Shown here in pieces: positions 28,776-55,504 of a stretch of 64,000 bases of DNA. This DNA is from an uncultured Gammaproteobacteria bacterium (GTDB taxonomy: Bacteria > Patescibacteriota > Patescibacteriia > JACQRZ01). Position 1 is the stretch's first letter, and the number at the start of each line of letters is the position of its first letter. The position numbers and the translations under genes are program-made. The notes beneath the pieces are model-generated. The model searched no databases. It was not told the origin of the DNA and saw nothing but the letters and a program-made list of their open reading frames with translations. Location of the stretch: assembly GCA_964621085.1 (NCBI GenBank), contig CAZUKY010000001.1, positions 167,226-231,225 of the forward strand, read 5' to 3'.

Positions 28776-28776
28776 A

Positions 28777-30485: not shown

Positions 30486-30491
30486 ACATGC

Positions 30492-31961
30492 TCACGGCTC
30501 CTTCTTATCCCTCTCAACACTCGTGTGCGGTTTTTTGATGCGCTCCATCAAGCCAGAAAGTTCACTCAGCGTTACGACGCCGGTGACAAAAAGCATGCAC
30601 GCATACGCCCCGACCCCGACAAATATATTCCAAACCAGCCAGGGAGTGTGAAGCACATCAAGAGCAACAGACATTCCCAGTGTAGAAAACCCAATACGGA
30701 ACGTCGCGCCAGCAAATTCCCGCACCTGGGCTTTCCAATACGTGTATGTTGCGATCATGCTTAAAAGAAATATTGCCGTATATGTTGCCGATGCCGCAAT
30801 AGCTGCCCCCTGCTCTGCGTACCAAGGAATGAGTGCAAGATTCAGTACGACATTGATCGCTGCCGCGATACCAAAAATAACCGTATTTTTTTTCTGATTG
30901 CCGCTTGCTGCCAGCAGCGCGCCTGGCGGATATGAAAGAAAGCCGAAAACGATCGCGGGAAGGAGAAGTCGGAGCACGAATCCCGTCGGCGCATAGGCCG
31001 CACCGTAAAATGCCGCTACGATATCGTCGGCCAGAATTGCAGTGCCTGCCGCAACCGGGGCGACGGCGAGCAGCAGATAGCGGAGCGCTCGGACGAATGT
31101 CGGTCCGAGGCGCGACGGATCACGAGCGATCAGGGAACTGAGCGCAGGATACAAGCTTGAGGAAATTGCCGCCGGTATGATATTTAAGGCAAGAATGAGC
31201 TTGTTTCCGGCCGAATACAGGCCGGCTGCCTCCGGGCTTGCAAGGCGCGCGACAAGTGCCGTGTCAATGAATGTGTAGATCCGGGAAAAGAGAGCAGCCC
31301 CTGCGAAGGGCATCGAGATTGCGAACAGGTGTCGGATGCACGCACTATCCGGCCGCGCAAGAATCGGGACGCGCATCCGCCGAAAAAGCACAAAAAGGAC
31401 GAGAAGAAAATTCGAGAAGCTGCCTAAAAATACCGCGCCGATAAGCGCATGGATGGGGAGATCGAATGCGATAGCTGAAATTCCGGTTGTCATCATGACG
31501 CCAATCGCAAGGATCCCGCCCCAGGACTCATACCACAAATTCTGAAAACCGCGCACAATACCCCAACACGATGTCGAGATGACGTCGATGAATGTCGCCG
31601 CTCCCGCCAATGCGATCAGCTGGATCATGACTGGCGGGTACTGCAACGCGACCGCACTGCCGACGATAAGGCCGTAGACAATAACGCCGAGACCGGTCTT
31701 CATGAGTAGGACCTGGCTCGCATTTTTGCGCGCCGTCTGGGTATCGCGCGCCGTCTCGCGCGTGAGAGCAGCCGAGAGGCCGTGATCGATCAGTATGCCG
31801 AACAGCGCCGTGAACGCGAGCGCAGCGCTATAGCTTCCCTGATCTTCGGGTCCGAATGTCCGCGCGACAATAATAAAATATGCGAGCGTCATCAACTTCT
31901 GGATGACGCCCGACCCAAGCGCAAAAAAGGAATTCCGGGTTATCGACTGCTTTTCGAGCAT
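30492..31961 (-). CDS. Polysaccharide flippase, MOP/Wzx superfamily
   Basis: 489 aa, ~12-14 TM helices, N-terminal signature typical of oligosaccharide-flippase family proteins. Confidence 0.75.
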   Translation of the reverse strand: MLEKQSITRNSFFALGSGVIQKLMTLAYFIIVARTFGPEDQGSYSAALAFTALFGILIDHGLSAALTRETARDTQTARKNASQVLLMKTGLGVIVYGLIVGSAVALQYPPVMIQLIALAGAATFIDVISTSCWGIVRGFQNLWYESWGGILAIGVMMTTGISAIAFDLPIHALIGAVFLGSFSNFLLVLFVLFRRMRVPILARPDSACIRHLFAISMPFAGAALFSRIYTFIDTALVARLASPEAAGLYSAGNKLILALNIIPAAISSSLYPALSSLIARDPSRLGPTFVRALRYLLLAVAPVAAGTAILADDIVAAFYGAAYAPTGFVLRLLLPAIVFGFLSYPPGALLAASGNQKKNTVIFGIAAAINVVLNLALIPWYAEQGAAIAASATYTAIFLLSMIATYTYWKAQVREFAGATFRIGFSTLGMSVALDVLHTPWLVWNIFVGVGAYACMLFVTGVVTLSELSGLMERIKKPHTSVERDKKEP

Positions 31962-36884: not shown

Positions 36885-38630
36885 CTACGCCACAACGGCC
36901 CGAATCCGGCGGATGCCAGCAGAAGATGCCTCTTCTTTGACAATCGAAAAGGAGCCGATTTGACCGGTATGCGACACGTGCGGACCGCCGCAAAACTCCT
37001 TAGAAAACGCCTCTTCCAGCGACGGGCCAACGACATAAATGCTCACGCGATCGGGATATTTTTCCTGAAAAAAATAGAGGGCTCCGGTGCGTTTCGCCTC
37101 TTCGATCGGCAGCTCGATGCGCTGCACCGGGAGATCCTGCCGCACGATGTCGTTGACGAGTGCCTCGACTTGGCGCAGTTCCTCGTCGGTTACTTTGCGC
37201 GGGAACGAGAAGTCAAAGCGCGTGCGTTCGACCGTAATATCCGATCCGCGCTGCGAGACGTCAGGTCCCAGGACCTGTCGGAGCGCCTGCTGTAACAGAT
37301 GGGTTGCCGTATGCAGGCGTGTCACGATCGAGAGTTCCGCCTCGTCTTTTGCCTTTAACTCGCCGGTGTCCAGCAGCAATCCATGGCCGCCGAACTTCTT
37401 CTCGAGGCCGGCCCGAGAGATTTCCTGGTGTTTTTTGAACGCCTCTTCAAATGCTTCTCGCGTCAGTCCGCGTGCCTTCTCGCCTCCCACCTCTTTTGTG
37501 ACCTCGTAGGGAAGGCCGTAACTCTCGTAGAGCTTAAAGGCGGTCTGGGCATCGACGCTCTCAAGTTTTGCGAGCTCTTTGAGACCGTTCTTTAGCGTTT
37601 TGAGAAACTTTTCTTTCTCGGCGGAAAACTCGCTTGCAATTACCTCTTTTTGCAGCTCCGGATACCACTCGCCATAGTCGTCGACAATGCGATCAAAGAC
37701 CGGGGCAAGTGAAAGTGCGCCTTCGGCCAAGTACTCCTGCGCGATCACCCGCCGCAGAAGACGCCGCAGGATGTACCCTCGTTCTTTGTTGGACGGCCGA
37801 ACGCCGTCTGAGACCAAAAACGCGACGGCACGGCAGTGATCGGCAATGATACGCTTCATGCGCGGTTCGAGGGTTGCTGGTAGAAGCCCGATGATCGGAC
37901 TGAAGAGGTCTGTCTCATACATGGTACCTGTATGCTGAGCAACCATGGCAAGCCGCTCAAAACCCATGCCGGTATCAATCCCGGGTGTCGCCAGCTCGGT
38001 GAGATGCGCGCGACCCGCCTCGAGATCCTCCCGCGAACCGTCGCAGAAAAACTGATTAAACACGATATTCCACACCTCAATATCAGTACCGTTTGCATTT
38101 TTGCAGTAGATCTCCGTCGTTGGTCCGCACGGGCCGCTTGATCCCGTCGGACCCCAAAAGACGTCGCTCATCCCCTGCTCGCGGATATCGGTAACGCCCA
38201 GCTCCTGCCAGATGGCGCGCGACTCCTCGTCTTTCGGCACGTGTCCCGACCCCTCGAAAATGGAAACGTAGGAGATTGTGAGTCCGCACACCTTCGTTAT
38301 GAACTCATGCGCATACGTAATCGCCTCCCGCTTGAAATATCCGCCGAAGGAGAAATTCCCAAGCATCTCAAAAAAAGTGAGATGACTTTCATCACCCACC
38401 TCGTCGATATCCGATGTGCGGAAGCTTTTTTGGATCGAGGCGGTGTTTTTCGACCCAAAGTCGGCCATCGCGTCGGCCTCGCCAGTGTAGTACTTTTTGA
38501 ACTGCTGCATGCCCGCCGTCGTCAGGAGTACCGACGGATCATCAGGAATCAGCGAAGACGACGGCACGATCGCGTGCCCCCGCTCCTTAAAGTACTCGAT
38601 AAATTTTTTACGAAGTTCTGAGGAAGTCAT
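36885..38630 (-). CDS. alaS: Alanine--tRNA ligase, compact 581-aa form (catalytic + editing domains; abbreviated C-terminus)
   Basis: Class II AlaRS N-terminal motifs (FIEYFKERGH, TTAGMQQFK). Editing-domain HTATHLL and CGGPHV zinc motifs. Confidence 0.85.
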   Translation of the reverse strand: MTSSELRKKFIEYFKERGHAIVPSSSLIPDDPSVLLTTAGMQQFKKYYTGEADAMADFGSKNTASIQKSFRTSDIDEVGDESHLTFFEMLGNFSFGGYFKREAITYAHEFITKVCGLTISYVSIFEGSGHVPKDEESRAIWQELGVTDIREQGMSDVFWGPTGSSGPCGPTTEIYCKNANGTDIEVWNIVFNQFFCDGSREDLEAGRAHLTELATPGIDTGMGFERLAMVAQHTGTMYETDLFSPIIGLLPATLEPRMKRIIADHCRAVAFLVSDGVRPSNKERGYILRRLLRRVIAQEYLAEGALSLAPVFDRIVDDYGEWYPELQKEVIASEFSAEKEKFLKTLKNGLKELAKLESVDAQTAFKLYESYGLPYEVTKEVGGEKARGLTREAFEEAFKKHQEISRAGLEKKFGGHGLLLDTGELKAKDEAELSIVTRLHTATHLLQQALRQVLGPDVSQRGSDITVERTRFDFSFPRKVTDEELRQVEALVNDIVRQDLPVQRIELPIEEAKRTGALYFFQEKYPDRVSIYVVGPSLEEAFSKEFCGGPHVSHTGQIGSFSIVKEEASSAGIRRIRAVVA

Positions 38631-43639: not shown

Positions 43640-45208
43640 TCACTCAATCTCCTCTTTTTTCTCTTTGATGAACGAGAACCACTCTTCGGTGATCTCGATG
43701 AATGCCTGGAGCGGCAGCTCGATGAGCACGTCGAAGAGAAAGACGAAGACATTGACGCGGGAGATGTTGAACGAGAGCCAGTGGCCGACTTGCACGATCG
43801 GCATGGAAAAGGTGTCCAGCAAGGTTCCGAGGAGCGTCTGGCGGGGCTTGAGAATGATCAGCTCGCGCACCTGGCGGCGCAAGGTAATCCCGAAAAACGT
43901 GATAAGAGAGAAGAACAGGAAAAAGATAATGCCGCTCATCAGGTTGAAGTTCAACTTGTGCAGCACCCAGGCGACCGCACCGAATGAAATCGCATACACG
44001 GCGAGGTAAAAAATGGTGAAAAAAACGGAGAGGACCCGGTTGCGGCGGGGATCCGAATTTTTCTTCGGGACGAAAATCTCTGCCGGCGTTTCCTTGTAGA
44101 GAATCTCTTTGACGGCCTGAACAATGGCGCGCGTATTGGCATCGCTCGGAAAAGAAACGGTAAACGCGATGGCGGCGAGAAGAAACGGCGGGAACAAGAT
44201 ATTGATCAAGAGCGGCACGCCGTGAATCTCGCCTGCCGTCAAGAGGTCGTAGGGCAGCTCAACGGCCAGACCTAACACCATCTTGGTTAAAAAGATATAG
44301 ACAAACGCACGGATTGTGCGCGAATAGAGCCGCCGATGCTGCACGGAGTAGAGCCCCTCGCAAATACGCGTCGCCTCGCGCTCGAGGACATCCGGATCCA
44401 TGATCGCTTCGGGATTGTTTTTTGCAATCGTCAAAAGCACGATAAAGGGAATCCGGTGCCGGCGGAACTCTCCCTGGAACTTTTTGTTGAGCGGATGGCG
44501 AATGAGAGCGTCGATCTTGCGCGCCACGTTCGCGTACTCCGTCGCGCGCGTGCGCGGATCAGTGCTCGTGTCGATCCACTCGGGGAAACTCTGCTTCAAG
44601 ATGAAGTAGCGAAGCCGATGGATGTCGGGACGCAGGAGGATGCGGTATGCGGCAATGAACATCTGCGACTTGCGCAAACGCTCGTCCGCTTCGTCTTGAG
44701 CTTGGGGAGTCAGCGGCTCGCACTGTTCGTACATGAGGCGAACCAGCGCCTCTTCGTGATCCATGGGCGAGAGGCGCTCATCGATCGCGCAGGCAGCCAT
44801 CGCGATGAGCCAGTCGGAGTCTTTGTCTGAAAGGGTTTTTTCGCGCCGAAGCGACTCGACGATTCGCAAGTAAAAGGCGAGGATCTCGGCGACCTCGGAT
44901 ATCGCACGGTGGCCCAGTGTATTGTTCGGAAAATACCGCGATCGCACCAGTTCGCGTACCAGTCCGTTTGCGATCTTTTCGGGCTCATCCTGCAGGATCA
45001 GCCGCCGCGAGAGGATCCGCCGGATCGCATTTTGCCGCAGAAGATGCTCGTCGGCATAATCGATGACGCTGCGGATCTTTTCGTAATAAAACGCGATCGC
45101 GCCGACCGCTTCATTGATGACGATTTTTTGCTCGTCCTCGATCTCGCGCGGCTTTTTTTTCAAGGCAGCCGCATACCGCGAAAAGCGTTCTGTGAGTGTC
45201 AGAGGCAT
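43640..45208 (-). CDS. Membrane protein: large cytoplasmic N-terminal domain plus 4-5 C-terminal TM helices. Hypothetical; in an operon with the VirD4-like ATPase.
   Basis: Hydrophobic helices in the last ~200 aa (for example FPPFLLAAIAFTVSF and SVFFTIFYLAVYAISFGAVAWVL). Confidence 0.5.
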   Translation of the reverse strand: MPLTLTERFSRYAAALKKKPREIEDEQKIVINEAVGAIAFYYEKIRSVIDYADEHLLRQNAIRRILSRRLILQDEPEKIANGLVRELVRSRYFPNNTLGHRAISEVAEILAFYLRIVESLRREKTLSDKDSDWLIAMAACAIDERLSPMDHEEALVRLMYEQCEPLTPQAQDEADERLRKSQMFIAAYRILLRPDIHRLRYFILKQSFPEWIDTSTDPRTRATEYANVARKIDALIRHPLNKKFQGEFRRHRIPFIVLLTIAKNNPEAIMDPDVLEREATRICEGLYSVQHRRLYSRTIRAFVYIFLTKMVLGLAVELPYDLLTAGEIHGVPLLINILFPPFLLAAIAFTVSFPSDANTRAIVQAVKEILYKETPAEIFVPKKNSDPRRNRVLSVFFTIFYLAVYAISFGAVAWVLHKLNFNLMSGIIFFLFFSLITFFGITLRRQVRELIILKPRQTLLGTLLDTFSMPIVQVGHWLSFNISRVNVFVFLFDVLIELPLQAFIEITEEWFSFIKEKKEEIE

Positions 45209-45232: not shown

Positions 45233-47005
45233 TTACAAAGCCCAATCGTCGATCGGGGGGGCGGGTTTTTCCGGATTCTTGGTCGGTGCCGGAGGCTCGG
45301 GCGGCGTAACTGCCGGCGCTGATGGCGCGCGATCGGCAGTATCGCGTTCCCGACTCTCGGCCGGCTGCACTGACGGTTGGCGCCCACCGTCGCGGTGCGG
45401 CTCTTTGCCCTCCAGATTTTTCGTCGGCGAAGCGCTTGTCAGCGCGGATCGCACCGACGAAGATACGGGCGATGGCCGTTTTTTTCGCTTCCGTTTTCGC
45501 GGCGCATCTTCATCGCGTCGCGGCTCTGCAGCAAGATCGCGGAGAGAGAGCGTCTTTTCCGGTGCAGTTGCCCGAGGCGGCATCGGCACTGCACGATCAG
45601 GCGCAGCGTGCGAAAAACCCGAACGCGAGGGCGGCGGAATAACCCGCCCGACTGGAGCAAAGGGACGCTGCGGCATCGCCGCCGCCTCGGCTGCACGCCG
45701 CTCTTTTTCTTTCTGATCCATCGTCTCGGTCCAGCGCCGGATCTTATCATCGACGATCTCGCGGGCGATCGCGTATCGCTCGCGGCTGACCTTGATCACT
45801 TTGTCCAGATTGCCGGTCTTTTCCTCCTCTGACAACGGTGGCAATCCGATCGCGGAAAAAGGATCGGAGGAGACGCCATCGATCATGAGTTTGATGTAGT
45901 AATTGAACTTCGGAATATTCACAAGATCTTCTTCCGTGAATCGCGGCGTAAACTCCTTGACCAAGAAATCCGCATCCGATGCGCCAACACGAAACGCGAT
46001 CATAGTGCCGACGTTGCCAAAGACCGCCGCTGAAACTTTTTCATCCAGCTGCTCGATGTACTGATGGGCGACAATAAGGTTGAGTCGGTACTTTCGCGCT
46101 TCCGACAGGATGTTGGCGAAACTCTCGGTCGCGAAATTTTGAAACTCGTCGACGTATAGGTAGAAGTCGCGGCGTGCGGCCTCGGGCATCTCGACGCGTT
46201 CCATCGCCGAGAGCTGAATTTTGGTGACAAGCATGCCGCCGAGCAAGCGACTGTTGTCCTCGCCGATCCGGCCCTTCGACAAATTCATGATCAGGATCTT
46301 TTGATTATCCATGATCTCGCGGATGTGAATCGATGACTTGACCTGGCCGACGATATTCCGAATCAGGGACGCGGACAAGAACTGACCGACCTTGTTTTGC
46401 ACCGGCGCGATTGCCTCGCTCGCGTACTTGTCGTTCCAGCTCGCAAAGTCATTGACCCAGAACGCCTTTACGACCGGGTCCTGGATCTTTTCGATGACCT
46501 TTTGGCGGTAGAGTTTGTCTGAGAGCATGCGATTCACGCCCAGCATGGTGCTTCCCGGATAGTCCAGGAGCGCGAGCAAGGTGTTGTTGAGAATGTACTC
46601 CATACGCGCGCTCCACACGTCTGGCCAGATTTTTTTGAAGACGCCCATCAGGCCGGAAGAGACCAGATGCTTGTAGCGCTCCTCGACCGTCTCGAGAATA
46701 TTGAACGCGACCGGATACTCCATATCCGCGGGGTTGAGATAGACCACGTCATTGATGCGGTGCGGCGGGATGTACTCCAGAATTTTTTCCGCCAAATCGC
46801 CGTGCGGATCGACAACGCCGACACCCCGGCCGTTGCGGATATCGTCGATGATCATGTTCTCAAGCACGGTTGACTTTCCCATGCCGGTTTTACCGATCAG
46901 GTACACGTGGCGCCTGCGGTCGTCTGTTTTGATGCCGAAACGGCGACGCTGGTTGCGGAACGTCGTCTCGCCGATGGCGGTAATTTCATTCTGATACAAA
47001 GACAT
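45233..47005 (-). CDS. VirD4/TraG/TraD-like type-IV-coupling-protein-family P-loop ATPase. Cytoplasmic form with no TM segment and a Pro/Arg-rich disordered C-terminal tail.
   Basis: Walker A YLIGKTGMGKST at residue ~37, Walker B LYVDEFQNF, and ARKYRLNLIVAHQYIEQL, characteristic of the T4CP family. Confidence 0.65.
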   Translation of the reverse strand: MSLYQNEITAIGETTFRNQRRRFGIKTDDRRRHVYLIGKTGMGKSTVLENMIIDDIRNGRGVGVVDPHGDLAEKILEYIPPHRINDVVYLNPADMEYPVAFNILETVEERYKHLVSSGLMGVFKKIWPDVWSARMEYILNNTLLALLDYPGSTMLGVNRMLSDKLYRQKVIEKIQDPVVKAFWVNDFASWNDKYASEAIAPVQNKVGQFLSASLIRNIVGQVKSSIHIREIMDNQKILIMNLSKGRIGEDNSRLLGGMLVTKIQLSAMERVEMPEAARRDFYLYVDEFQNFATESFANILSEARKYRLNLIVAHQYIEQLDEKVSAAVFGNVGTMIAFRVGASDADFLVKEFTPRFTEEDLVNIPKFNYYIKLMIDGVSSDPFSAIGLPPLSEEEKTGNLDKVIKVSRERYAIAREIVDDKIRRWTETMDQKEKERRAAEAAAMPQRPFAPVGRVIPPPSRSGFSHAAPDRAVPMPPRATAPEKTLSLRDLAAEPRRDEDAPRKRKRKKRPSPVSSSVRSALTSASPTKNLEGKEPHRDGGRQPSVQPAESRERDTADRAPSAPAVTPPEPPAPTKNPEKPAPPIDDWAL

Positions 47006-47020: not shown

Positions 47021-48448
47021 TTATACGAACGGGATATTTGAAGGCGGTTCTTGCTTGTCCGCATCTTCACCTTCGGCTGGCGGCGGGATATCGACAACAA
47101 CTTTCTCCGCCGCGCGATAGACCGGCTCTTCGGAGAGCGGCAGCCGCGATGGGGGTTCGGCGCGCTTCACCTCGGCCTTACTGATCAAGGGAGCCTTGAT
47201 GTCGATCATCGGAAAGTGCCAGATACTTGCGACTTCTTCAATATTCAGGATATACGTGGGTCCGCCGCCAGAGGAGCGGCCGCGATAATTCTCCCACACC
47301 TTGCGCTGGCGCACTGCAACGCGCTGCGCGACGCGAAAGTAGTTCGCCTTTGTCGCGGTGTACTTATCGACGCCGAACGCATTCATGTCCTGCGTATTGA
47401 ACTGCTTGAACGAACCCATAACGCCACCGACCATGCGCTGGCGGTTCATCAGCTCTTTGGGCGCGATACAGATGACGCGCACCTTCGCGGCAAAACCAGG
47501 CTTTGAGGCCTTGATCCCGATTTGCTCCACGACCGAGCGTTCGGCCGGAGACAGGTGCTGGATTATCGACGGGGGTGCTGCCGGATCTTTTTTCGGTTCG
47601 GCGGGTTTTGCAAATGAGATGCCCAGAATCTTTTCCAACGGCCACGTTACCAGGCCGAGAACAGCGTCTGTTATTTTTTGCACACGCGACTTTGGTTTTG
47701 GCTTCTCGGGGGCGCCGATCAGTTTTTTGATCTCATTCATGCTGCGCTCCTTCCAGTCGCCGCCTGTCGGCACGAGCGGAATCTGGATAAAGATGGACTC
47801 GCCCGGCCGCAGCGTTCCCAAAAACTCAAGGAGCGACGCAAGCGGATCCTTGAACGCCTGGGAAATCTGGTCGTAAAACGCCGGATAAGTCCGGATCGGA
47901 TAGACGTCGTCCTTGGAAAGGGACAGTTCCGCGCCCCACATGTCGTACGTCTCGTCCGGCCAATCCTGCGGATACTCGTTCGTATAATCAGACGCCTCGA
48001 CGATTTCGGCATCCGGATACTGCGCGAACACCGCCGCTTCCAGAATGTCGCGGTACTTGACCGGAATGCGCACGTAGTACTGGATAAACCCTCCGCGGCT
48101 GATGATCTCGACAGCAAAGTTTTCCTGAAACTTGCCCTTCCAGTACTTGTCGATCAGGTTGCCGTATCCGCTGTAGAGCCCTTCAAGGTGCGCGAAGATA
48201 TTCTCGACCGCTTTTGGCGTCTGCTCGGTCTGCTTTGGCACGTTGATGGCCAAGAGCACATACTGAATGCTTGCGGCATAGTTGCCCTGGATCTCATTCA
48301 TCCACATCTCCCACAGTCCCCGAATGACAAACACGGCGATCAGGATCCAGCCGCCATTGATGAGAATGAACCAAAATGTTTTGAGCGGGTTTGAAAAATC
48401 AAGAGACGCGAAAAAATACAGGATATCCATACCTTCGTATATTAGCAT
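47021..48448 (-). CDS. Membrane-anchored hypothetical protein (N-terminal TM helix plus ~430-aa domain). First gene of the putative three-gene translocation module.
   Basis: TM helix FWFILINGGWILIAVFVIRGLW. No family recognised. Confidence 0.5.
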   Translation of the reverse strand: MLIYEGMDILYFFASLDFSNPLKTFWFILINGGWILIAVFVIRGLWEMWMNEIQGNYAASIQYVLLAINVPKQTEQTPKAVENIFAHLEGLYSGYGNLIDKYWKGKFQENFAVEIISRGGFIQYYVRIPVKYRDILEAAVFAQYPDAEIVEASDYTNEYPQDWPDETYDMWGAELSLSKDDVYPIRTYPAFYDQISQAFKDPLASLLEFLGTLRPGESIFIQIPLVPTGGDWKERSMNEIKKLIGAPEKPKPKSRVQKITDAVLGLVTWPLEKILGISFAKPAEPKKDPAAPPSIIQHLSPAERSVVEQIGIKASKPGFAAKVRVICIAPKELMNRQRMVGGVMGSFKQFNTQDMNAFGVDKYTATKANYFRVAQRVAVRQRKVWENYRGRSSGGGPTYILNIEEVASIWHFPMIDIKAPLISKAEVKRAEPPSRLPLSEEPVYRAAEKVVVDIPPPAEGEDADKQEPPSNIPFV

Positions 48449-48527: not shown

Positions 48528-49424
48528 TTACGCGCCTTTTTTGCCGAAACGCTCATGCCATGCCATCAGAATCGGCGAGGCAAAGAAAATAGACGAGTAG
48601 GTTCCGATGCCGATACCCAGGATCAAGGCGAGCGAGAACGTTTTCAGCGACTCGCCGCCCAGCACATAAATCGCAGCGAGTACAAGCAGGACGGTAACAG
48701 ACGTATTGATCGAGCGGACAATGGTCTCGTTCAACGACTTATTCATGATCTCCTCAAACGTTCCACGATATTTCAGCAAGTTCTCGCGCACGCGGTCGAA
48801 GACCACGATGGTGTCATGGACCGAAAATCCGAGAACGGTAAGAAATGCAGGGATAAAAGCGCTGGTGATCTCAACGCCTGCAAAGTGGCCCAGGGCGGCA
48901 AATACGCCAAGAACAAAAATCAGATCGTGAAGAAGCGCAACAATCGCCGCCGCGCCGTATTTCCACGAGGATACCGGATAGGACACCTTGCGGAATGTGA
49001 TCGAGATGTACAGGAGGATCATGCACAGTGCAAAGATCAGTCCCCAAAACGACTTCGTTTTCAGCTCCTCCCCAATCACCGGTCCGATCGACTCGAACGA
49101 CTCCTCGGTAAGCGCCGGGTCATCGGCGCGCAGCGACTGAAGGATCTTCTGGTGTGTCTCCTCGGAAAGCGTCTTTGCGCGAATCAAAACGCCTTTCTCC
49201 CCTGCAAACGAGATCTCGTATTCTGCCAACCCCGCCTCGACGAGACGCGCGCCGATCGCGCCGGTATCCGGACGCGTTTGCGCATACTCGACTGACAACT
49301 GGCTGCCGCCGGTGAAGTCGATGCCCAGCCGAAGCCCCCACAGGGACAAGCTCACGATACCGGCAGCCATCAGTGCAACCGAGATGGTCAGCCAGATATT
49401 TCTTTTTTGAATGATATTGGTCAT
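48528..49424 (-). CDS. secF: Protein translocase subunit SecF (ORF opens at 49532; MTNIIQKRNIW start preferred)
   Basis: SecD/SecF family TM core with conserved GIDFTGG periplasmic loop. Confidence 0.85.
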   Translation of the reverse strand: MTNIIQKRNIWLTISVALMAAGIVSLSLWGLRLGIDFTGGSQLSVEYAQTRPDTGAIGARLVEAGLAEYEISFAGEKGVLIRAKTLSEETHQKILQSLRADDPALTEESFESIGPVIGEELKTKSFWGLIFALCMILLYISITFRKVSYPVSSWKYGAAAIVALLHDLIFVLGVFAALGHFAGVEITSAFIPAFLTVLGFSVHDTIVVFDRVRENLLKYRGTFEEIMNKSLNETIVRSINTSVTVLLVLAAIYVLGGESLKTFSLALILGIGIGTYSSIFFASPILMAWHERFGKKGA

Positions 49425-49444: not shown

Positions 49445-51574
49445 CTATGAGGCGCGGGGCTGAGCCGGCTCTGCATTCTCTCCCGCGGATTTTGCCGGCG
49501 CCATCCACAGCGCGCGGGGGATCTTTTTCCATCCCGCGAAGAACTTCAGGAATATGCGCGTCAGCGAAATTGCGGAGAACATGCTGACCAGAATGCCGAT
49601 GGCAAGCGTCAGGGCGAATCCCTTGATCAGGCTAGCCGAAAACCAGAAGAGAATGGCGCACGTGATCAGCGACGCGACATTACTGTCCCGAATCGAGGTC
49701 CAGGCGCGCCGGAAGCCGTCCCTCAGGCTCGCATCAAGGCCCTTGCCGCTGCGAAGCTCTTCTTTCATGCGCTCGAAGATAAGAACGTTAGCATCCACCG
49801 CCATACCGATCGAAAGAATGAATCCCGCAATGCCCGCAAGCGTCAGTGTCACCGGCCAGATCTTGAAAATCGAGAGCACGATCGCGGTATAGATAAGCAG
49901 TGCGCATACCGCCAGGAGGCCCGGCAGCCGGTAAAAGAAAATCATGAAAATCACCACGAGCAAAAAGCCGAACAAGCCGGCGTACAGGCTCTTTTCCAGC
50001 GACTCGGCGCCGAGCGTCGGGCCGATCGTCTGCTGGCTGACCAGCGTGATGGGTACGGGAAGAGCGCCGGTATTGAGGCGCTGCGCAAGAAGCTTTGCTT
50101 CCTGAAGCGTGAAGTCCCCTTGAATGACTGCCCGGCCGTCGGTAATCGCCTGGTTCACTCGCGGCACGCTGATCGGCTGACCATCCAAAAGCACGGCAAC
50201 CGGTTTTTCGATATTGCGCTTGGTGATCTCGGCAAAGAGCTTTTTCCCTTCGTCATTGAACTCGAGGCCGACTTCCGGCAGGCGGGTCAGCTGGTTTGAC
50301 TCGACATACGCGCGTTTCAGCTGTTTGCCGGTAAGCCCCGTATCCTTCCACATGCCACCATCGGCGGGAAGATAGTCGCTCTCCGATTGCGCGCGGACCA
50401 AAATGCGGGCGATCGAGTACTCGTTCAACGGGCGCGCATCGGTACGATGAATCACATGGTACCCGAACTCAGTCTCGACCGGTGCGGAAATGTCTCCATT
50501 TTTCAAGGCGTATGCGGCCTCCTCAAATGGCGGCACGAGCATGCCTTTCGAGATCCAGCCCAGACTCCCCCCGGATCCCTTGCTTCCGGAATCCGTTGAG
50601 TACTCCTTCGCAAGTTCCCCAAAATTCTGCGGTGTCGCTTTCTGGCGCACTTCTTCGATTTTCTTTCGCGCGTCTTCTTTGGAAAGCTCCGATTCGCAGC
50701 GCGAAGCGCCCTGATAACAGATCAGGATGTGGCTGAGCGCAAGCTCTTCGCCGCTCGTGCGCGTATCCAGGAGTTTCACGACGTTGTACCCCTCGGTGTT
50801 TTTTACCGGAGACGGCGCGATCTCTCCTTTTTTCAAGCTCTTGGCACTCTCCAAAAGTTCGGAGAGCGGCACGTCCGCTGTTTGGGATGAGATCCAGCCG
50901 AGCTCGCCGCCCTTTTGGCTCGTTGCCAAGTCTTCGGAGCGATTTTTCGCAAGATCGACAAAATTGGCGCCGCTCGCACGAGCGTCTTTCAGGATCGCCT
51001 CCGCTTTTGCGCGCGCCGCGGCATTGTTTTTTTCAAGTTCTTTTTTCTGCTCGGGCGTCAACTCGGTGATCCGCTCTTCGGGCGGCATCTCTTCTTTAAA
51101 TTCAAGCAGCGGCGTCTCGCCGATCATACGGATAGCACTCGCCGTGTCCTGGACCCCGGCAAGCTCGACTGCGACGCGATACGAATCGCCCGTTTTCACG
51201 GTGCGGACAATAGGTTCTGCAACGCCAAAGGCGTTCACGCGGCGCTCGATAACGTCGCGCACCCCTTCGACAGCGGCCGTCTGCTCGCTCGGTGCGACTT
51301 TCGACAGATCCGTATCATACACCAGATGCGTCCCGCCTCTCAGATCAAGGCCGAGACGGAACGAGTCGGGAATGGCGGTAAAAGAAATCTGAGGAACCAC
51401 ATCTGCCGGCAGGCCCCATGACTGAAGAGTGGCATTGATCGGCTCGCGATAATGATTGAGCGCGTCAGTGCCTGAATAAAAGGCGGTGAAGGCAAAAAGA
51501 ACGGCGATGCCCAGCATCGTCCAGCGCAACTTGCCGCGCGGCGAGGGGGCGAAAATCTTTCTTAATATATTCAT
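49445..51574 (-). CDS. secD: Protein translocase subunit SecD carrying two tandem parvulin-type (PpiC/PrsA-like) peptidyl-prolyl isomerase domains inserted in the periplasmic head
   Basis: SecD TM1 and head motif LGLDLRGG. Next comes an insert with GGELGWISSQ...EGYNVVKLLD and SHILICYQGA...GGSLGWISKGMLVPPFEEAAYALKNGDISAPVETEFGYHVIHRTD (parvulin signatures). SecD resumes at VAVLLDGQPISVP plus the 6-TM core. Confidence 0.85.
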   Translation of the reverse strand: MNILRKIFAPSPRGKLRWTMLGIAVLFAFTAFYSGTDALNHYREPINATLQSWGLPADVVPQISFTAIPDSFRLGLDLRGGTHLVYDTDLSKVAPSEQTAAVEGVRDVIERRVNAFGVAEPIVRTVKTGDSYRVAVELAGVQDTASAIRMIGETPLLEFKEEMPPEERITELTPEQKKELEKNNAAARAKAEAILKDARASGANFVDLAKNRSEDLATSQKGGELGWISSQTADVPLSELLESAKSLKKGEIAPSPVKNTEGYNVVKLLDTRTSGEELALSHILICYQGASRCESELSKEDARKKIEEVRQKATPQNFGELAKEYSTDSGSKGSGGSLGWISKGMLVPPFEEAAYALKNGDISAPVETEFGYHVIHRTDARPLNEYSIARILVRAQSESDYLPADGGMWKDTGLTGKQLKRAYVESNQLTRLPEVGLEFNDEGKKLFAEITKRNIEKPVAVLLDGQPISVPRVNQAITDGRAVIQGDFTLQEAKLLAQRLNTGALPVPITLVSQQTIGPTLGAESLEKSLYAGLFGFLLVVIFMIFFYRLPGLLAVCALLIYTAIVLSIFKIWPVTLTLAGIAGFILSIGMAVDANVLIFERMKEELRSGKGLDASLRDGFRRAWTSIRDSNVASLITCAILFWFSASLIKGFALTLAIGILVSMFSAISLTRIFLKFFAGWKKIPRALWMAPAKSAGENAEPAQPRAS

Positions 51575-51699: not shown

Positions 51700-52833
51700 T
51701 TACGCCGCCTGCAGTCGTCCGTAGAGGGCGAGCGTCTGGGGAAACACCCTATCCGCGTCGTAATGCTTTTTGATGTGTTCGGCGCTTGCACTCGCGAGCT
51801 CTCTGTGTGGCAGACTCAGTGCCGCCTCCATGGCAGCGCTCAGACCGTCTACATCCCCCGATGGGAACGTGATACTGTCGTGCGGCAATGCCTCGATATT
51901 TTCACTGATATCAGATGCGATGACGGGCGTGCCGTAGCTCATCGCCTCGAGTAGCGTATAGGAAAGCCCTTCGCTTTCGGATGCGTGGACGAACAGCCGC
52001 GCATTGCTGTACAGCGCGGCAAGCGCTTCTCCGCTCTGTTCGCCGAGAAAAAGAATGCGATCATTGCCTGCCGCACGCTGCTTCAAGTCCGCGACATACC
52101 CGTCGGTATAGCTCTGTGCGCCGACAATCGCCAGTTTCGGCAGTGAGCCGCTTCTTGCGCATGCGCGATTGTACGCATCGATAATGGTATGGATGCCCTT
52201 GTGCGGCACGAGACGGGAGACCGAAAGAATATAGGAGTCCTTCTCAAGGCCAAAATGCTGAATTGCCTGCGCGGGGCGAGGCGACGGCAGAGCAACGGCG
52301 TTTGGAATATAGGTCGCGACTCGGCCGTAGCGTTCGCGCACGTACGCGGCAAGGGTGCGGGAGACGACGATCGTCTCGTGCGTGGTCGTGCAGGCAAAAA
52401 TCTCGCCGAGGCGAAAAACAAGGCGTGCAAGAGCTCCCCACTTTTTATGGAAATAGTCCTGGCAGTGAAAGGTCGCAAGCACCTTCGCGCGCGGCGCGAA
52501 GATCCGCGGGATCCATGCCCAGATCGACGGCCCGATGCCGTGAAAATGAAAAATGTCCGGACGGATGACGACGAGCGCATGCAGCGTCGCGGCAAGCGTG
52601 TGGATCGGCGTCTCGAGGTGCTTACTGCGCAGCGTCGGCAGCATGACGCACTGCACGCCCTCGAAGCGTTCGGTAGCGCGCGGCGCGACATAGAACTTCC
52701 GGCAATAGGCAAAAACCTCGTGCCCGGCCGAAGCCAGGCGCGTTGCCAGATCTTCCACGTGCCGCTCCACTCCTCCGGAGCGCGCCGGGATCCCCTTTTG
52801 CCCGATCATCGCTATACGCATAAAGCTCGTCAT
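51700..52833 (-). CDS. Family 4 (GT-B) glycosyltransferase
   Basis: ESEGLSYTLLEAMSYGTPVIASD signature. Confidence 0.8.
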   Translation of the reverse strand: MTSFMRIAMIGQKGIPARSGGVERHVEDLATRLASAGHEVFAYCRKFYVAPRATERFEGVQCVMLPTLRSKHLETPIHTLAATLHALVVIRPDIFHFHGIGPSIWAWIPRIFAPRAKVLATFHCQDYFHKKWGALARLVFRLGEIFACTTTHETIVVSRTLAAYVRERYGRVATYIPNAVALPSPRPAQAIQHFGLEKDSYILSVSRLVPHKGIHTIIDAYNRACARSGSLPKLAIVGAQSYTDGYVADLKQRAAGNDRILFLGEQSGEALAALYSNARLFVHASESEGLSYTLLEAMSYGTPVIASDISENIEALPHDSITFPSGDVDGLSAAMEAALSLPHRELASASAEHIKKHYDADRVFPQTLALYGRLQAA

Positions 52834-52868
52834 TGAAGACCTTTAGTATAGCGGATGAGCTGAATTTG

Positions 52869-54125
52869 TCAATGGTTTGGGGTAGCGCTGGAAAGAACCT
52901 TTTCGTATATATTCATGAGCTTTTCGTAAAAATTTTCCGGCGCGTAGACAGACTGGACGTGTGCGCGAGCGGCCATTCCGTGAAGACGAAGCGCCTCAGG
53001 GTCACTCAACGCCTCATTCAGTGTGCGAGAAAGGTCGTGCGCATCGCCGGCCCGGAAGAAAAAGGCGACCTTCGACGGGAATAACTCGGGCAGCGCGCCA
53101 ATGTCTGCAAGAAGCACCGCCTTCCCGCACGCGGCAGCCTCGAGGGCCGTGTAGCCGAATACCTCGTACCACTCGGACGGGACCACGATCAGCGCTGCGT
53201 TTCGCATGAGGGAGAGGATCTCTTCGTGCGACTTGAAACCAAGGAACGAGACGCGATCGACAACGCCGCACTCGGCGGCCTGCCGCTTCAGCCGCTCCTC
53301 TTCCGGACCCGAGCCGGCGATCAGAAGCGGTGCGGACACGTCCTTCATCGCCGCAATCAGAGTGGACACGCCCTTCTCTTCCGATAGTCTGCCGGCGTAC
53401 AGCACATACTCGCCCGACTCGAACGAGGGCTCGATTGCCGAAGCATCGATCGAGTGCGGAATCACCCTTATGCGTTCCGCGGGCATCCCGAATTCCGTCA
53501 GTTTGTTTTTTACGAATTCGGATGGCGCGATCCAGTGCGAGATGACGTTCCGATAGATTCCCGACCAGCGGTGCAGATACATCTCGATGCAGTCAACCAG
53601 CCCCTTAAGTACCGATCCCTGAATCGAGCGATTGAACGCATCTCGGTAAAACTTCCCCCCCTTGCAGGACTCATCGATGCGTCCGTGAGTAAAAAGTTTG
53701 TAATTGGGACAGATCAACTTGTAATCGTGCACGGTGTGCACGACAGGGATATTCCGTTTTCGCGCCGCGTGCAAAATCGAGGGCGAGATCTGATGATAGA
53801 TGTTATGAATGTGCACAATGTCGGGTTGAGCGTCTCTAAGCAGCACTCCGAACTTCCGTTTTGCCTCAAAGGAATAGAGCATGGTAAAAAAGCCCTTGAG
53901 CGCTGACAGCGGTTTTCCAGCCACTGCACGGAATGTTCCCGCATACCGGAACTGCGTCGGCGAGACGAAATATTTTGCGTACGGTGTCTCGTCAGTCTGC
54001 GGCCACGCAACGGAAAACGGGATGACCTCATGTCCGTGCGCTTCCAGAATCCTTTTCATGTCAAAAAAAGACGTCGTGGATCCGTCGCGCTGGTAGTAGT
54101 ACTTGTTGACGAGAATGATTTTCAT
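52869..54125 (-). CDS. Family 4 (GT-B) glycosyltransferase
   Basis: E..G.T.LEAAACGKAVL signature (EVFGYTALEAAACGKAVLLADIGALPE). Confidence 0.8.
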   Translation of the reverse strand: MKIILVNKYYYQRDGSTTSFFDMKRILEAHGHEVIPFSVAWPQTDETPYAKYFVSPTQFRYAGTFRAVAGKPLSALKGFFTMLYSFEAKRKFGVLLRDAQPDIVHIHNIYHQISPSILHAARKRNIPVVHTVHDYKLICPNYKLFTHGRIDESCKGGKFYRDAFNRSIQGSVLKGLVDCIEMYLHRWSGIYRNVISHWIAPSEFVKNKLTEFGMPAERIRVIPHSIDASAIEPSFESGEYVLYAGRLSEEKGVSTLIAAMKDVSAPLLIAGSGPEEERLKRQAAECGVVDRVSFLGFKSHEEILSLMRNAALIVVPSEWYEVFGYTALEAAACGKAVLLADIGALPELFPSKVAFFFRAGDAHDLSRTLNEALSDPEALRLHGMAARAHVQSVYAPENFYEKLMNIYEKVLSSATPNH

Positions 54126-55504
54126 GCGATATGCGCCTTCAACCGCTCGTGTTCGACAAGGATTAATCCGCCGATGAGCCAGAAGTAAAACGCGAGCGTT
54201 CTCACTTCAAGGTATGTCGCCAAAAACGCCTGAAAAGATATAGCCGCAATGACTCCCAAATACCCGAGAGCGAATGCGCGATAAAACTCGTCCGACGAAT
54301 GACGGAAGACAAAGAGTGCGGCGCAGCCGAGATATACGATGAGCGCGATATACAGTGCGAGTCCCAGCGTGCCGATCTCGCCCCAGAGCGAGAACCAGTT
54401 GTTGTCGATGTGGCCCTGGTATCCATGAATGCCGAACGGAAGACCGTGCGCTTCATATTGCACGACATAGTGCAGGGCAGCAGCAGCGCCCGCGCCGTAG
54501 CTTCCGGGACCGACTCCCAAAATAGGTGATGCTGCAACGACTGACAGCGGTGTATGAACGATAAAGTACGCGCGTCCCATGGCGGTATACTCGCCCTTCC
54601 ACCGCTCCAGCGAAAATGCCTCAAAGAACCGGTGAACAATCGTTTGATTCGGAATGTCGATCAGGAAGGCGCTTGTTGCGACGGAGAAAAAGATATACGC
54701 CCCAGCAAGTCCGGCAACGCTCATGCTGCCCCAGAGAATCCGCTTGTCGCGCATAAACACATACCCGATGACAAACGCAGACAACAGCAGTCCAAACCAC
54801 GATGCGCGCGAGTAGGTCAAAAGAAACGCCGGCAGTGCAGCAGCAAACAGAAGCAACAAATACACGTGATCATGGCGATGTCGCCACTGGTACAAGAAGC
54901 CGATGATCAATGTAAGGACAAGTGCGGCAAAGGTCCCCAGCTGGTCATAGCGCCCCATCGTGCCAAAGACCCGCTGCCCCGACTCCCAAAACTGTTCCGT
55001 GCCGCCCGTCAGCTGAATGTCTCCGAATATCTTTCGGTCCGACGGAATCAACAGCTGATCCAACGGCGCGCCGATTCCCGCCTGAAGAATCCCCAGAGCG
55101 CCCTGAAACAGCAAGACACCAAAAAGAATTCCCAAAAGGGCGCGGGAAAAGCGTTCGTGAAGCTGCAACGCAACAGCGATAAACGCGACGAGTATGAAAC
55201 GCACGATCTGTCGAATGCCCAAGACAGCTACCTCGGCAGGCGTCTGATTGAAAAGTGCGGAAGCGACTGCAACGCCGAGAAGCGCGAGAAAGAGCAGTCC
55301 GAACACGCGAGGAATTCTTTTCCAATGGAAAAGCGCATACGCCGCCAGAGAATAAAGGATGACCTCGGGCGCATACCGAACAAAGACGTACAGCGAGTCC
55401 GGGACGAATTTCAAGAAAAACGGCTCAAACGGGAAGTATGCCGCAAGTCCAAGAAGAAGGAAGTGTGGCACAAGCGAGAGTCGATTGGAAAAATTTTGAA
55501 ACAT
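54122..55504 (-). CDS. O-antigen ligase / Wzy-like polymerase family membrane protein
   Basis: 460 aa, ~12 TM helices with a Wzy_C-type periplasmic loop. 4-nt overlap with the upstream GT4 gene. Confidence 0.7.
   Translation of the reverse strand: MFQNFSNRLSLVPHFLLLGLAAYFPFEPFFLKFVPDSLYVFVRYAPEVILYSLAAYALFHWKRIPRVFGLLFLALLGVAVASALFNQTPAEVAVLGIRQIVRFILVAFIAVALQLHERFSRALLGILFGVLLFQGALGILQAGIGAPLDQLLIPSDRKIFGDIQLTGGTEQFWESGQRVFGTMGRYDQLGTFAALVLTLIIGFLYQWRHRHDHVYLLLLFAAALPAFLLTYSRASWFGLLLSAFVIGYVFMRDKRILWGSMSVAGLAGAYIFFSVATSAFLIDIPNQTIVHRFFEAFSLERWKGEYTAMGRAYFIVHTPLSVVAASPILGVGPGSYGAGAAAALHYVVQYEAHGLPFGIHGYQGHIDNNWFSLWGEIGTLGLALYIALIVYLGCAALFVFRHSSDEFYRAFALGYLGVIAAISFQAFLATYLEVRTLAFYFWLIGGLILVEHERLKAHIA

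What the first reader, a model, noticed from the sequence alone, without database searches (positions are those of the whole stretch)
50422..51082. SecD periplasmic head carries two inserted parvulin-type PPIase domains
Canonical SecD head sequence (LGLDLRGG...) is interrupted by ~220 aa containing two PpiC/PrsA-like rotamase signatures. The second is complete, from HILI to GYHVIHRTD. SecD then resumes. Fusing a foldase to the translocon accessory subunit would position proline isomerisation exactly where secretory proteins emerge. In other bacteria this job is done by separate PrsA/SurA/PpiD proteins. This architecture is uncommon, as far as I can recall.
Basis: partly seen in the sequence, partly recalled or inferred. 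Interest (0 to 1): 0.6.

Follow-up and report, generated by a model that had tools for sequence, protein, structure and literature searches.

The report
SecD with built-in parvulin foldase module
The protein-export helper SecD of this Patescibacteria (candidate phyla radiation, CPR) bacterium carries two parvulin-type folding-enzyme domains spliced into its mobile outer "head". This design is conserved in hundreds of related uncultured bacteria, and I found no paper that describes it.

Summary
One uninterrupted 709-aa secD gene (49445-51574, minus strand) has a 247-aa insert (aa 162-408; 50351-51091) between the first P1-head strand (LLEFKE) and the rest of the head. The insert scores 140 bits against Pfam Rotamase. 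It aligns in one stretch with the P1+P2 parvulin tandem of SurA.

It is not a misassembly. All 120 best homologues (51-63% identical) and about 50 genome loci share the architecture. These come from Uhr-, Magasanik-, Falkow-, Parcu- and Gracilibacteria. A second widespread form (about 540 aa) carries a single parvulin.

New details:
- Domain 2 keeps the catalytic His pair (H282 in 76/77, H373 in 77/77), an acidic residue and the proline pocket.
- Domain 1 has lost both His and lacks an N-terminal β1 strand. A strand after domain 2 (aa 385-394) appears to supply it.
- The single-parvulin form is a circularly permuted parvulin with both His invariant.

Most likely function: a foldase/chaperone riding on the moving SecD head at the translocon exit. 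This is inferred; no activity was tested. It is a covalent counterpart of the reported SurA-SecDF and Mycoplasma PrsA-like-SecDF associations. I rate it a new variant of a known kind, of moderate-to-good interest.

The parts
49445..51574 (-). secD coding sequence (709 aa plus TAG stop); the ATG at 51574 is the likely start
   Evidence: ORF list. TIGR01129 secD 384.6 bits against cut-off 244.4. Identical 709-aa protein P0001 in the database. Homologue N-termini align from this Met.
51464..51526 (-). Transmembrane helix 1 (aa 17-37), which places everything up to aa ~518 outside the cytoplasm
   Evidence: Hydrophobic stretch RWTMLGIAVLFAFTAFYSGTD. Helix 12-34 in the AF2 model. Standard SecD topology as in 3AQP.
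51092..51364 (-). N-terminal part of the P1 domain: GG motif (LGLDLRGG, aa 74-81), P1 base, and the first head strand LLEFKE (aa 156-161)
   Evidence: Sec_GG and SecD_1st Pfam matches. Aligns to Thermus SecDF residues 32-117. L157, E158, F159 and K160 are invariant in 77 homologues.
50351..51091 (-). Whole insert (aa 162-408, 247 aa): the tandem parvulin module plus short linkers
   Evidence: It lies between the two segments that align to Thermus SecDF 32-117 and 160-438. SurA 1m5y residues 171-370 (P1+P2) align to aa 181-387 in one stretch, E=2.4e-22.
50756..51064 (-). Parvulin domain 1 core (aa 171-273: helices α1-α4, strands β2-β4). It is degenerate and lacks an N-terminal β1 strand
   Evidence: PF00639 58.6 bits, profile positions 8-96 only. 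The β4 His position is N264 (N 30, S 22, G 7, H 6 of 77). Pocket residues are not conserved. AF2 secondary structure.
50432..50755 (-). Parvulin domain 2 (aa 274-381), complete and in normal strand order. H282 (50729-50731), H373 (50456-50458), D328, L338, L346, F350. Cys pair C286 (50717-50719) and C293 (50696-50698)
   Evidence: PF00639 91 bits, profile 1-96 of 97. H282 in 76/77, H373 in 77/77, E/D328 in 75/77, L338 and F350 in 77/77, C286 and C293 in 77/77. Foldseek match to the S. aureus PrsA PPIase domain (TM 0.85) and to Pin1. Codons checked.
50387..50431 (-). Strand after domain 2 (aa 382-396, PLNEYSIARILVRAQ). Proposed to be the displaced β1 strand that completes domain 1, with R390 at the His position
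   Evidence: The AF2 model shows two continuous strands of 24 residues each, 262-285 and 371-394. The column pattern V-(A/S)-(R/H)-I-L-(I/V) mirrors the β1 motif A-S-H-I-L-I. In the single-parvulin relatives the equivalent strand, ASHILI, follows β4 and its His is invariant.
50024..50350 (-). Remainder of the P1 head and return to the base (aa 409-517), starting WKDTGLTGKQLK
   Evidence: SecDF_P1_head PF22599 93.2 bits, aa 410-507, profile 17-114 of 114. Aligns to Thermus SecDF from residue 160 onward.
49535..50020 (-). Transmembrane helices 2-6 of SecD (aa 519-680), including the proton-path motif GMAVDANVLIFER (D594)
   Evidence: SecD_SecF_C PF02355. Long helices 519-680 in the model. D594 and N596 are invariant. 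Aligned to the AAVDGNV motif of Thermus SecDF.
48528..49424 (-). secF (298 aa), 20 nt downstream of the secD stop; the partner subunit
   Evidence: TIGR00966 SecF 283.3 bits against cut-off 160. Start checked. The same secD-secF order is seen in L076 and L053.

Best explanation
This is a genuine, vertically conserved variant of the translocon accessory subunit SecD, found in Patescibacteria (CPR). A rod of two parvulin-fold domains is spliced into the first loop of the mobile P1 head, on the outer face of the membrane.

Domain 2 is a normal-order parvulin with an intact catalytic set. It most likely acts as a peptidyl-prolyl isomerase.

Domain 1 has lost the catalytic histidines. It most likely serves as a spacer or as a substrate-binding (chaperone) surface, as the inactive P1 domain does in SurA.

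Topologically, domain 1 is circularly permuted: its β1 strand comes after domain 2, so domain 2 is nested inside domain 1. In the model the two domains are joined by one long two-stranded β-ribbon.

The P1 head of SecDF is the part that grips emerging polypeptide and swings under proton-motive force. The module would therefore meet unfolded secretory proteins as they leave SecYEG, hold them, and speed up prolyl isomerisation. That is the job done by the separate proteins PrsA, SurA or PpiD in other bacteria.

Shown here: the domains, their order, their conservation, their extracytoplasmic position, and the spread of the architecture.

Inferred: enzymatic activity, substrate contact, any coupling to head movement, and the exact strand pairing.
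For: Domains and single ORF.

Insertion point: alignment to solved SecDF structures; Foldseek hits to SecDF, SurA, the PrsA PPIase domain and Pin1.

Conservation of the architecture: 120 of 120 best homologues; about 49 double-parvulin and 2 single-parvulin SecD among 80 genome loci, including a Gracilibacteria locus at 31% identity and two fused SecDF versions.

Catalytic set under selection in domain 2: H282 76/77, H373 77/77, E/D328 75/77, L338 and F350 77/77, M346 74/77. In 49 more distant loci the middle H-[IL]-L strand is present in all, and G-[YFW]-H in nearly all.

Domain 1 is degenerate.

Permutation:
- The single-parvulin family has ASHILI after β4, with both His invariant in 70 sequences.
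- Moving that strand to the front extends the Pfam match to profile position 1 and adds 4.2 bits. This equals the contribution of a true β1, which is 5.0 bits.
- The AF2 model of the single form shows a β4-turn-β1 hairpin, 226-237 and 243-253.
- The AF2 model of the window protein shows continuous strands 262-285 and 371-394.
- The conserved middle β1 goes with the conserved domain-2 core, and the degenerate terminal strand goes with the degenerate domain-1 core.

Functional plausibility from published work:
- SurA binds the SecYEG-SecDF-YidC holo-translocon, and AlphaFold places SurA's P1 and P2 parvulin domains on the SecDF P1 head (PMC9987972).
- In Mycoplasma pneumoniae, PrsA-like PPIC proteins form a dome over SecDF/SecYEG, and Mpn444 cross-links to SecD (bioRxiv 10.1101/2025.04.25.650208 and 10.1101/2024.09.05.611430).

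Chromosomal housekeeping context: murE/F-like ligase, PBP, rsmH, clpB, priA, rpoA, alaS.
Against: No activity, binding or expression data exist for any member.

In PrsA and SurA the PPIase activity itself is largely dispensable for function (established knowledge), so conserved catalytic residues do not prove that isomerisation is the selected function.

The window's own domain 2 departs from the family at four positions conserved in at least 70 of the 77 sequences: D337S, F341I, M346L and E380A.

pTM is only 0.59, so the orientation of the module relative to the head and the membrane is not determined.

I had no access to model coordinates. The strand pairing is therefore read from the secondary-structure string and from sequence logic, not measured.

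The Pfam gain from permuting domain 1 of the window protein was negligible (+1.3 bits for Rotamase_3, none for PF00639).

Whether these genomes lack a separate PrsA could not be tested. One survey reports PrsA annotations in CPR classes (PMC9166423).
Confidence: 0.7

Rival explanations
1. The module is a non-catalytic chaperone or structural extension of the P1 head: a larger grip or holdase surface, or a spacer reaching through the cell wall. The conserved 'catalytic' residues would then be kept for fold stability or peptide binding, not for isomerisation.
For: Domain 1 has clearly lost the histidines. Parvulin domains of PpiD and the P1 domain of SurA are inactive, and the PPIase activity of SurA and PrsA is not essential for their function (established knowledge). 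The window protein has substitutions at otherwise conserved domain-2 positions. In the model the two domains form a long rigid rod.
Against: The His pair, the acidic residue and the hydrophobic proline pocket of domain 2 are kept in 74-77 of 77 sequences at only 50-60% overall identity, and also in loci down to 31% identity. In the single-parvulin form both His are invariant despite the permutation. That pattern is typical of active parvulins, whereas inactive ones such as PpiD have lost these residues.
Confidence: 0.2
2. The architecture is an assembly or gene-calling artefact that joins a prsA-like gene to secD.
For: None found.
Against: A single frame with no stop, and even base composition across both junctions. 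The parvulins lie inside the P1 domain, with SecD sequence on both sides, which a simple end-to-end join cannot produce. The same layout is present in all 120 best hits from NCBI, JGI, ENA and Logan assemblies, in about 50 species-level genome loci, and in a second family of more than 95 single-parvulin SecD clusters.
Confidence: 0.01
3. The module serves a different, lineage-specific purpose tied to the CPR lifestyle. Examples: handling one dominant substrate class such as pilins, S-layer or host-attachment proteins; or acting as a regulatory plug that gates P1-head movement.
For: CPR bacteria depend on surface structures and are thought to be epibionts (PMC9166423). An invariant Cys pair (C286/C293) stiffens the β1-α1 loop, which in Pin1-type parvulins contacts substrate, so specificity may be tuned. 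Neighbouring genes include glycosyltransferases, a Wzy-like protein and a type IV coupling-protein-like ATPase.
Against: The gene neighbourhood is not shown to be conserved with secD. The module is found with ordinary secF and in housekeeping context. Nothing in the sequence points to a particular substrate.
Confidence: 0.07

Closest known systems
SecDF of Thermus thermophilus / Deinococcus radiodurans (PDB 3AQP, 5YHF, 5XAN)
   Same: Same family and topology: TM1, P1 base and head, five further TM helices, the proton-path Asp motif, and a partner SecF. Sequence E=1.5e-78; Foldseek E=1e-22 to 4e-19.
   Different: The solved proteins have about 42 residues where this protein has a 247-aa tandem parvulin module. 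They are fused SecDF proteins, whereas here secD and secF are separate genes.
SurA of E. coli (PDB 1M5Y): tandem parvulin domains P1 (inactive) and P2 (active)
   Same: Both parvulins align in one stretch (SurA 171-370 to aa 181-387, E=2.4e-22). The order is the same: inactive first, active second. The loop length between the acidic residue and GGDLGW is also the same. SurA is reported to dock its parvulin domains on the SecDF P1 head (PMC9987972).
   Different: No SurA N- or C-terminal chaperone core (no SurA_N match). Covalently part of SecD. Domain 1 lacks its N-terminal β1 and appears permuted. The relative arrangement of the domains differs from crystal SurA (rmsd about 19 Å over 288 columns). 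The host has no outer membrane to serve.
PrsA of Gram-positive bacteria (PDB 4WO7, 2JZV, 6VJ4)
   Same: An extracytoplasmic parvulin foldase of monoderm bacteria acting on Sec substrates. Domain 2 superposes on the S. aureus PrsA PPIase domain (TM 0.85, 35% identity).
   Different: PrsA is a separate lipoprotein with one parvulin inserted in an NC chaperone domain, and it dimerises. None of those parts is present here.
PpiD-YfgM of E. coli and the PrsA-like 'dome' (Mdp444/436/489) on the Mycoplasma pneumoniae translocon
   Same: Parvulin-fold proteins positioned at the exit of SecYEG, in contact or competition with SecDF (PMC9643414; bioRxiv 10.1101/2025.04.25.650208; 10.1101/2024.09.05.611430).
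   Different: Those are non-covalent assemblies of separate proteins. The PpiD parvulin is inactive. Here the parvulins are part of the SecD polypeptide and sit on its moving head.

Membership tests
SecD (protein translocase subunit, TIGR01129) | Whole-protein score above the curated equivalog cut-off | tested here: met
   384.6 bits against 244.4, in two stretches split by the insert.
SecD (protein translocase subunit, TIGR01129) | Topology: TM1, large external P1 domain (base plus head), then five TM helices | tested here: met
   Pfam SecD_1st, SecDF_P1_head and SecD_SecF_C. AF2 helices 12-34 and 519-680. Alignment to 3AQP.
SecD (protein translocase subunit, TIGR01129) | Conserved proton-path Asp in the GxxVDxNV motif, and a partner SecF gene next to it | tested here: met
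   D594 and N596 are invariant. secF lies 20 nt downstream; TIGR00966 283 bits.
SecD (protein translocase subunit, TIGR01129) | Proton-motive-force-driven enhancement of protein export | not testable with these tools
   Needs genetics or biochemistry.
Parvulin-type PPIase (Pfam PF00639 / PF13616), domain 2 | Full-length profile match with β1-α1-α2-α3-β2-α4-β3-β4 order | tested here: met
   91 bits, profile 1-96 of 97. Secondary structure in the model. TM 0.78-0.85 to PrsA and Pin1 PPIase domains.
Parvulin-type PPIase (Pfam PF00639 / PF13616), domain 2 | Two active-site His on β1 and β4, Asp/Cys-position residue, and Leu/Met/Phe proline pocket | tested here: met
   H282, H373, D328, L338, L346 (Met in 74/77) and F350; conservation counts.
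Parvulin-type PPIase (Pfam PF00639 / PF13616), domain 2 | Measured cis-trans isomerase activity | not testable with these tools
   Needs an enzyme assay.
Parvulin-type PPIase, domain 1 | Parvulin fold | tested here: met
   PF00639 58.6 bits (cut-off 21.7), but only profile positions 8-96; no N-terminal β1.
Parvulin-type PPIase, domain 1 | Active-site His pair | tested here: not met
   N264 and R390 in the window. The family has N/S/G at 264 and R at 390 in most members.
SurA | N-terminal and C-terminal segments forming the chaperone core around the parvulins | tested here: not met
   No SurA_N-type Pfam match in the protein. The flanks are SecD P1 sequence.
PrsA | Lipoprotein signal, and an NC foldase domain with one inserted parvulin | tested here: not met
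   NCBIfam PrsA models score 100-109 bits against cut-offs of 343-361, through the parvulin part only. The N-terminus is the SecD TM helix.

The most novel reading that the evidence does not exclude
The parvulin rod is mechanically coupled to the proton-driven swing of the SecD P1 head. In that case CPR bacteria would have an energy-coupled extracytoplasmic foldase/holdase: substrate capture, prolyl isomerisation and release would be timed by the proton-motive force. This would happen in a compartment that has no ATP. The fusion would also serve as 'Rosetta stone' proof that parvulin chaperones work on the SecDF head in bacteria generally.
Probability: 0.15. Interest if true: 0.8.

Novelty: new variant of a known kind. 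Interest (0 to 1): 0.55.

Why it matters
How proteins leaving SecYEG are handed to folding helpers is unsettled. So far the evidence that parvulin chaperones work at SecDF is low-resolution EM plus AlphaFold docking for SurA, and cross-links plus tomography for Mycoplasma.

A natural, widely conserved covalent fusion of a SurA-like parvulin pair into the SecD head is independent evolutionary evidence for that partnership. It also offers a simple single-polypeptide system for structural and biochemical tests.

It tells us how organisms with tiny genomes and no outer membrane may organise extracellular folding. It adds a circularly permuted parvulin, in single and nested-tandem forms; no paper in the searched library contains both 'circularly permuted' and 'parvulin'.

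Current database names ('protein translocase subunit SecD') hide the foldase part.

Tried and rejected
Misassembly was considered and rejected.

Membership of SurA, PrsA or PpiD was considered and rejected: only the parvulin parts match.

Literature: six full-text searches combining SecD/SecDF with PPIase, parvulin, PpiC, rotamase, fusion, CPR or Patescibacteria, plus 'circularly permuted parvulin', found no description of this architecture. The library does not cover most subscription journals, so this is not proof of absence.

Pfam test of the permutation on domain 1 of the window protein: inconclusive (+1.3 bits for Rotamase_3, no change for PF00639). The same test on the single-parvulin form was positive.

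Co-occurrence of His at positions 264 and 390: 4 observed against 0.55 expected, Fisher p=4e-4. The four sequences are 61-86% identical to each other, so this is only a hint.

Profile search of 1.84 billion representatives with the insert: the best 150 are a mix of about 25 SecD fusions and many multi-parvulin proteins without SecD. It therefore gives diversity but no clean count.

A fold search against AFDB was not available. Model coordinates could not be read, so strand pairing and active-site orientation were not measured.

A scan of the 64-kb window found no second parvulin gene. The rest of the genome could not be examined, so replacement of PrsA is untested.

The direction of evolution between single and double forms is unresolved. 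The single form's α1 resembles that of domain 1, while its core and β1 resemble domain 2 and the middle strand.
Full report
**1. What is in the sequence**

The minus strand between 49445 and 51664 is one open reading frame. The likely start is the ATG at 51574. That gives 709 aa, identical to a database protein of the same length (P0001). The N-termini of the homologues align from this Met.

Pfam finds the following in this single protein:
- SecD_1st at aa 103-161.
- Two stretches of the parvulin family Rotamase (PF00639, E=5e-41, 140 bits against a cut-off of 21.7; PF13616, E=7e-42).
- SecDF_P1_head at aa 410-507.
- SecD_SecF_C at aa 510-672.

The NCBIfam SecD equivalog TIGR01129 scores 384.6 bits against a cut-off of 244.4, split into two stretches. 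secF follows 20 nt downstream at 48528-49424. Base composition is even across the region.

Two small corrections are given in section 2.

**2. Where the insert sits**

Against solved structures, aa 71-161 align to Thermus thermophilus SecDF residues 32-117, and aa 414-692 align to residues 160-438.

The break is therefore not at the LGLDLRGG motif (aa 74-81). It comes after the invariant strand LLEFKE (aa 156-161), which is the first strand of the P1 head. SecD resumes at WKDTGLTGKQLK (aa 409 onward).

About 42 residues of the Thermus protein are replaced by 247 aa (aa 162-408; 50351-51091).

After one N-terminal membrane helix (aa 17-37), this whole region lies outside the cytoplasm, as in all SecD proteins.

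**3. Not an artefact**

All 120 best matches among 5.8 billion proteins carry the same Pfam set (Rotamase plus the SecD domains). They are only 51-63% identical to the window protein and come from NCBI, JGI, ENA and Logan assemblies. Where a source names them, the name is SecD of Candidatus Uhrbacteria, Magasanikbacteria, Parcubacteria or 'Patescibacteria group'.

A scan of one genome per species found the following among the best 80 loci:
- About 49 SecD genes with an insert of 230-255 aa. One is a Gracilibacteria locus at 31% identity, and two are fused SecDF versions of about 1000 aa.
- Two SecD genes with an insert of about 137 aa.
- The remaining loci are SurA-type tandem parvulin proteins of Bacteroidota and Proteobacteria, with no SecD.

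The parvulins have SecD sequence on both sides, which an end-to-end misjoin cannot produce.

The window's gene neighbourhood is ordinary chromosome: a Mur ligase, a PBP transpeptidase, RsmH, ClpB, PriA, RpoA, AlaRS and MnmA.

**4. Anatomy of the module**

E. coli SurA aligns to aa 181-387 in a single stretch covering its P1 and P2 parvulin domains (E=2.4e-22). The module is thus a SurA-like tandem.

*Domain 2 (aa 274-381)* is a complete parvulin in normal strand order (PF00639 positions 1-96, 91 bits). In 77 aligned homologues the catalytic features are conserved as follows:

| Feature | Conservation |
|---|---|
| H282, on β1 | 76/77 |
| H373, on β4 | 77/77 |
| Acidic residue at 328 (position of Pin1 C113 / PrsA Asp) | 75/77 |
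| Pocket residues L338 and F350 | invariant |
| Pocket residue M346 | 74/77 |

The assignment of these positions to Pin1 and PrsA residues rests on my own alignment from memory of those sequences.

Two cysteines, C286 and C293, in the β1-α1 loop are invariant in this set. They are present in 36 of 51 more distant loci. They are absent from the Gracilibacteria and the single-parvulin forms. An external disulfide is plausible but untested.

*Domain 1 (aa 171-273)* matches the parvulin profile only from position 8 (58.6 bits). It has Asn, Ser or Gly where the β4 His should be, and its pocket positions vary.

The window protein itself differs from the family at four otherwise conserved domain-2 positions: D337S, F341I, M346L and E380A.

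**5. Structure prediction and the permuted topology**

AlphaFold2 with 77 sequences gave a mean pLDDT of 89.3, and 93-98 over the insert. pTM was only 0.59, so the individual domains are confident but their mutual orientation is not.

Foldseek matched the model to SecDF structures, to SurA, and for domain 2 to the S. aureus PrsA PPIase domain (TM 0.85) and Pin1.

The secondary-structure string shows no strand before the first helix of domain 1. It shows two unbroken strands of exactly 24 residues each:
- 262-285 runs from β4 of domain 1 straight into β1 of domain 2.
- 371-394 runs from β4 of domain 2 into YSIARILVRA.

I read these as one long antiparallel ribbon. Residues 384-394 would supply the missing β1 of domain 1, with R390 in the His position. 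Domain 2 would then be nested inside a circularly permuted domain 1. I could not read coordinates, so this pairing is inferred.

Three observations support it:

(a) *The single-parvulin form.* The SecD of locus L076 has the order α1...β4 (FGYHIIKK), a turn, then ILASHILIK. A search with it found more than 95 clusters of 528-606 aa with the same layout. In 70 of them both His are invariant (H228 and H249). Moving the C-terminal strand to the front extends the Pfam match from positions 7-96 to 1-96 and adds 4.2 bits. That is as much as the true β1 of domain 2 contributes, 5.0 bits. The AF2 model of this form shows a β4-turn-β1 hairpin at 226-237 and 243-253.

(b) *Matching patterns of conservation.* In the double form, the well-conserved middle β1 goes with the well-conserved domain-2 core. 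The degenerate terminal strand goes with the degenerate domain-1 core. That is what is expected if those pairs each form one domain.

(c) *Co-occurrence of His.* His at 264 and His at 390 occur together more often than chance (4 observed against 0.55 expected). The sequences concerned are related to each other, so this is only a hint.

HMM cross-scores show that the single form's α1 resembles that of domain 1. Its core and β1 resemble domain 2 and the middle strand. This fits a tandem duplication of a permuted unit, followed by decay of one composite domain. The direction of change is not resolved.

**6. How it most likely works**

Established knowledge on SecDF, from Tsukazaki and co-workers and the structures 3AQP, 5XAN and 5YHF: the P1 head binds emerging polypeptide and swings between membrane-facing and extended forms, driven by proton flow through the membrane domain.

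The module is mounted on the first loop of that head. My best reading is that domain 2 isomerises prolyl bonds in secretory proteins as they are held and released by the head. Domain 1 would act as a spacer or an extra binding surface. Together this combines in one polypeptide what PrsA, SurA or PpiD do as separate proteins.

Published results make the partnership credible:
- SurA binds the SecYEG-SecDF-YidC holo-translocon. In all AlphaFold models its P1 and P2 parvulin domains contact the SecDF P1 head (PMC9987972).
- In Mycoplasma pneumoniae, PrsA-like PPIC proteins form a dome over SecDF/SecYEG, and Mpn444 cross-links to SecD.
- PpiD-YfgM sits at SecYEG in E. coli (PMC9643414; listed).

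The main rival is a purely chaperone or structural role. The isomerase activity of SurA and PrsA is known to be largely dispensable, so this cannot be dismissed. The strict conservation of the catalytic set argues for activity, especially its survival through the permutation in the single form.

**7. Comparison with what is known, and novelty**

The protein is a true SecD: all testable family features are met. Domain 2 is a true parvulin. The protein is not a SurA, PrsA or PpiD, because their defining chaperone domains are absent.

Databases hold many copies, all named simply SecD. Six full-text searches found no paper that describes the fusion or a permuted parvulin. Coverage of subscription journals is incomplete.

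One CPR survey lists 'PrsA' among Sec components of CPR classes from automated annotation (PMC9166423). Whether those are separate genes or this fusion is unknown.

I rate it a new variant of a known kind. It is regular within much of the Patescibacteria, and I saw it only in loci with Patescibacteria-type or doubtful labels.

**8. Verdict**

The finding is real and correctly interpreted in outline. It gains value from three added points:
- It is a lineage-wide design with single and double forms.
- The parvulin unit is circularly permuted or nested, with one active-looking and one degenerate domain.
- It gives fusion-type evidence for the proposed cooperation between the SecDF head and parvulin chaperones.

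Function remains inferred. Interest 0.55.

Noticed in passing
window 50696-50719 (codons for C286 and C293): Two cysteines seven residues apart in the β1-α1 loop of parvulin domain 2. They are invariant in 77 homologues and present in 36 of 51 more distant loci. They are absent from the Gracilibacteria and single-parvulin forms. This may be an extracytoplasmic disulfide stapling the substrate-side loop.
   Followed up: partly
L076 3635-5266; L079; proteins P0271-P0378: A second widespread SecD form of about 540 aa with one circularly permuted parvulin: β1 'ASHILI' follows β4, and both His are invariant in 70 sequences.
   Followed up: yes
L018, L050 (ORFs of 1030 and 987 aa); P0203 (1015 aa): Some relatives carry the same parvulin insert in a fused SecD-SecF polypeptide.
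   Followed up: partly
window 45233-47005 (-), with 47021-48448 (-) and 43640-45208 (-): Immediately downstream of secF is a type IV secretion coupling-protein-like ATPase (TrwB/TraG/VirD4 Pfam matches) with a long Pro/Ala/Arg-rich tail. It is flanked by two large proteins (475 and 522 aa) that have no Pfam match.
   Followed up: partly
window 51700-55504 (-) and 25797-31961 (-): Two clusters of surface-polysaccharide genes: GT4 and GT2 glycosyltransferases, two Wzy_C/O-antigen-ligase-like membrane proteins (one fused to a GT2 domain), and a Wzx-type flippase.
   Followed up: no
L003, L004, L010, L013, L014, L016 and other loci titled 'uncultured Gammaproteobacteria bacterium' (TPA assemblies): These records encode the Patescibacteria-type SecD-parvulin fusion at 41-47% identity. 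Their organism label is probably a placeholder or an error. The same doubt applies to the 'Candidatus Binatia' (L006/P0108) and 'Bipolaricaulota' (P0066) labels.
   Followed up: no
proteins P0127, P0129, P0155, P0158, P0163, P0166: Many database proteins consist of three or four tandem parvulin domains with no other recognised domain (about 360-800 aa). They score as high against the insert profile as true SecD fusions do.
   Followed up: partly
window 36885-38630 (-): The alanyl-tRNA synthetase ORF is only 581 aa, which is short for a bacterial AlaRS. It has the catalytic and second additional domains but apparently not the full C-terminal region.
   Followed up: no
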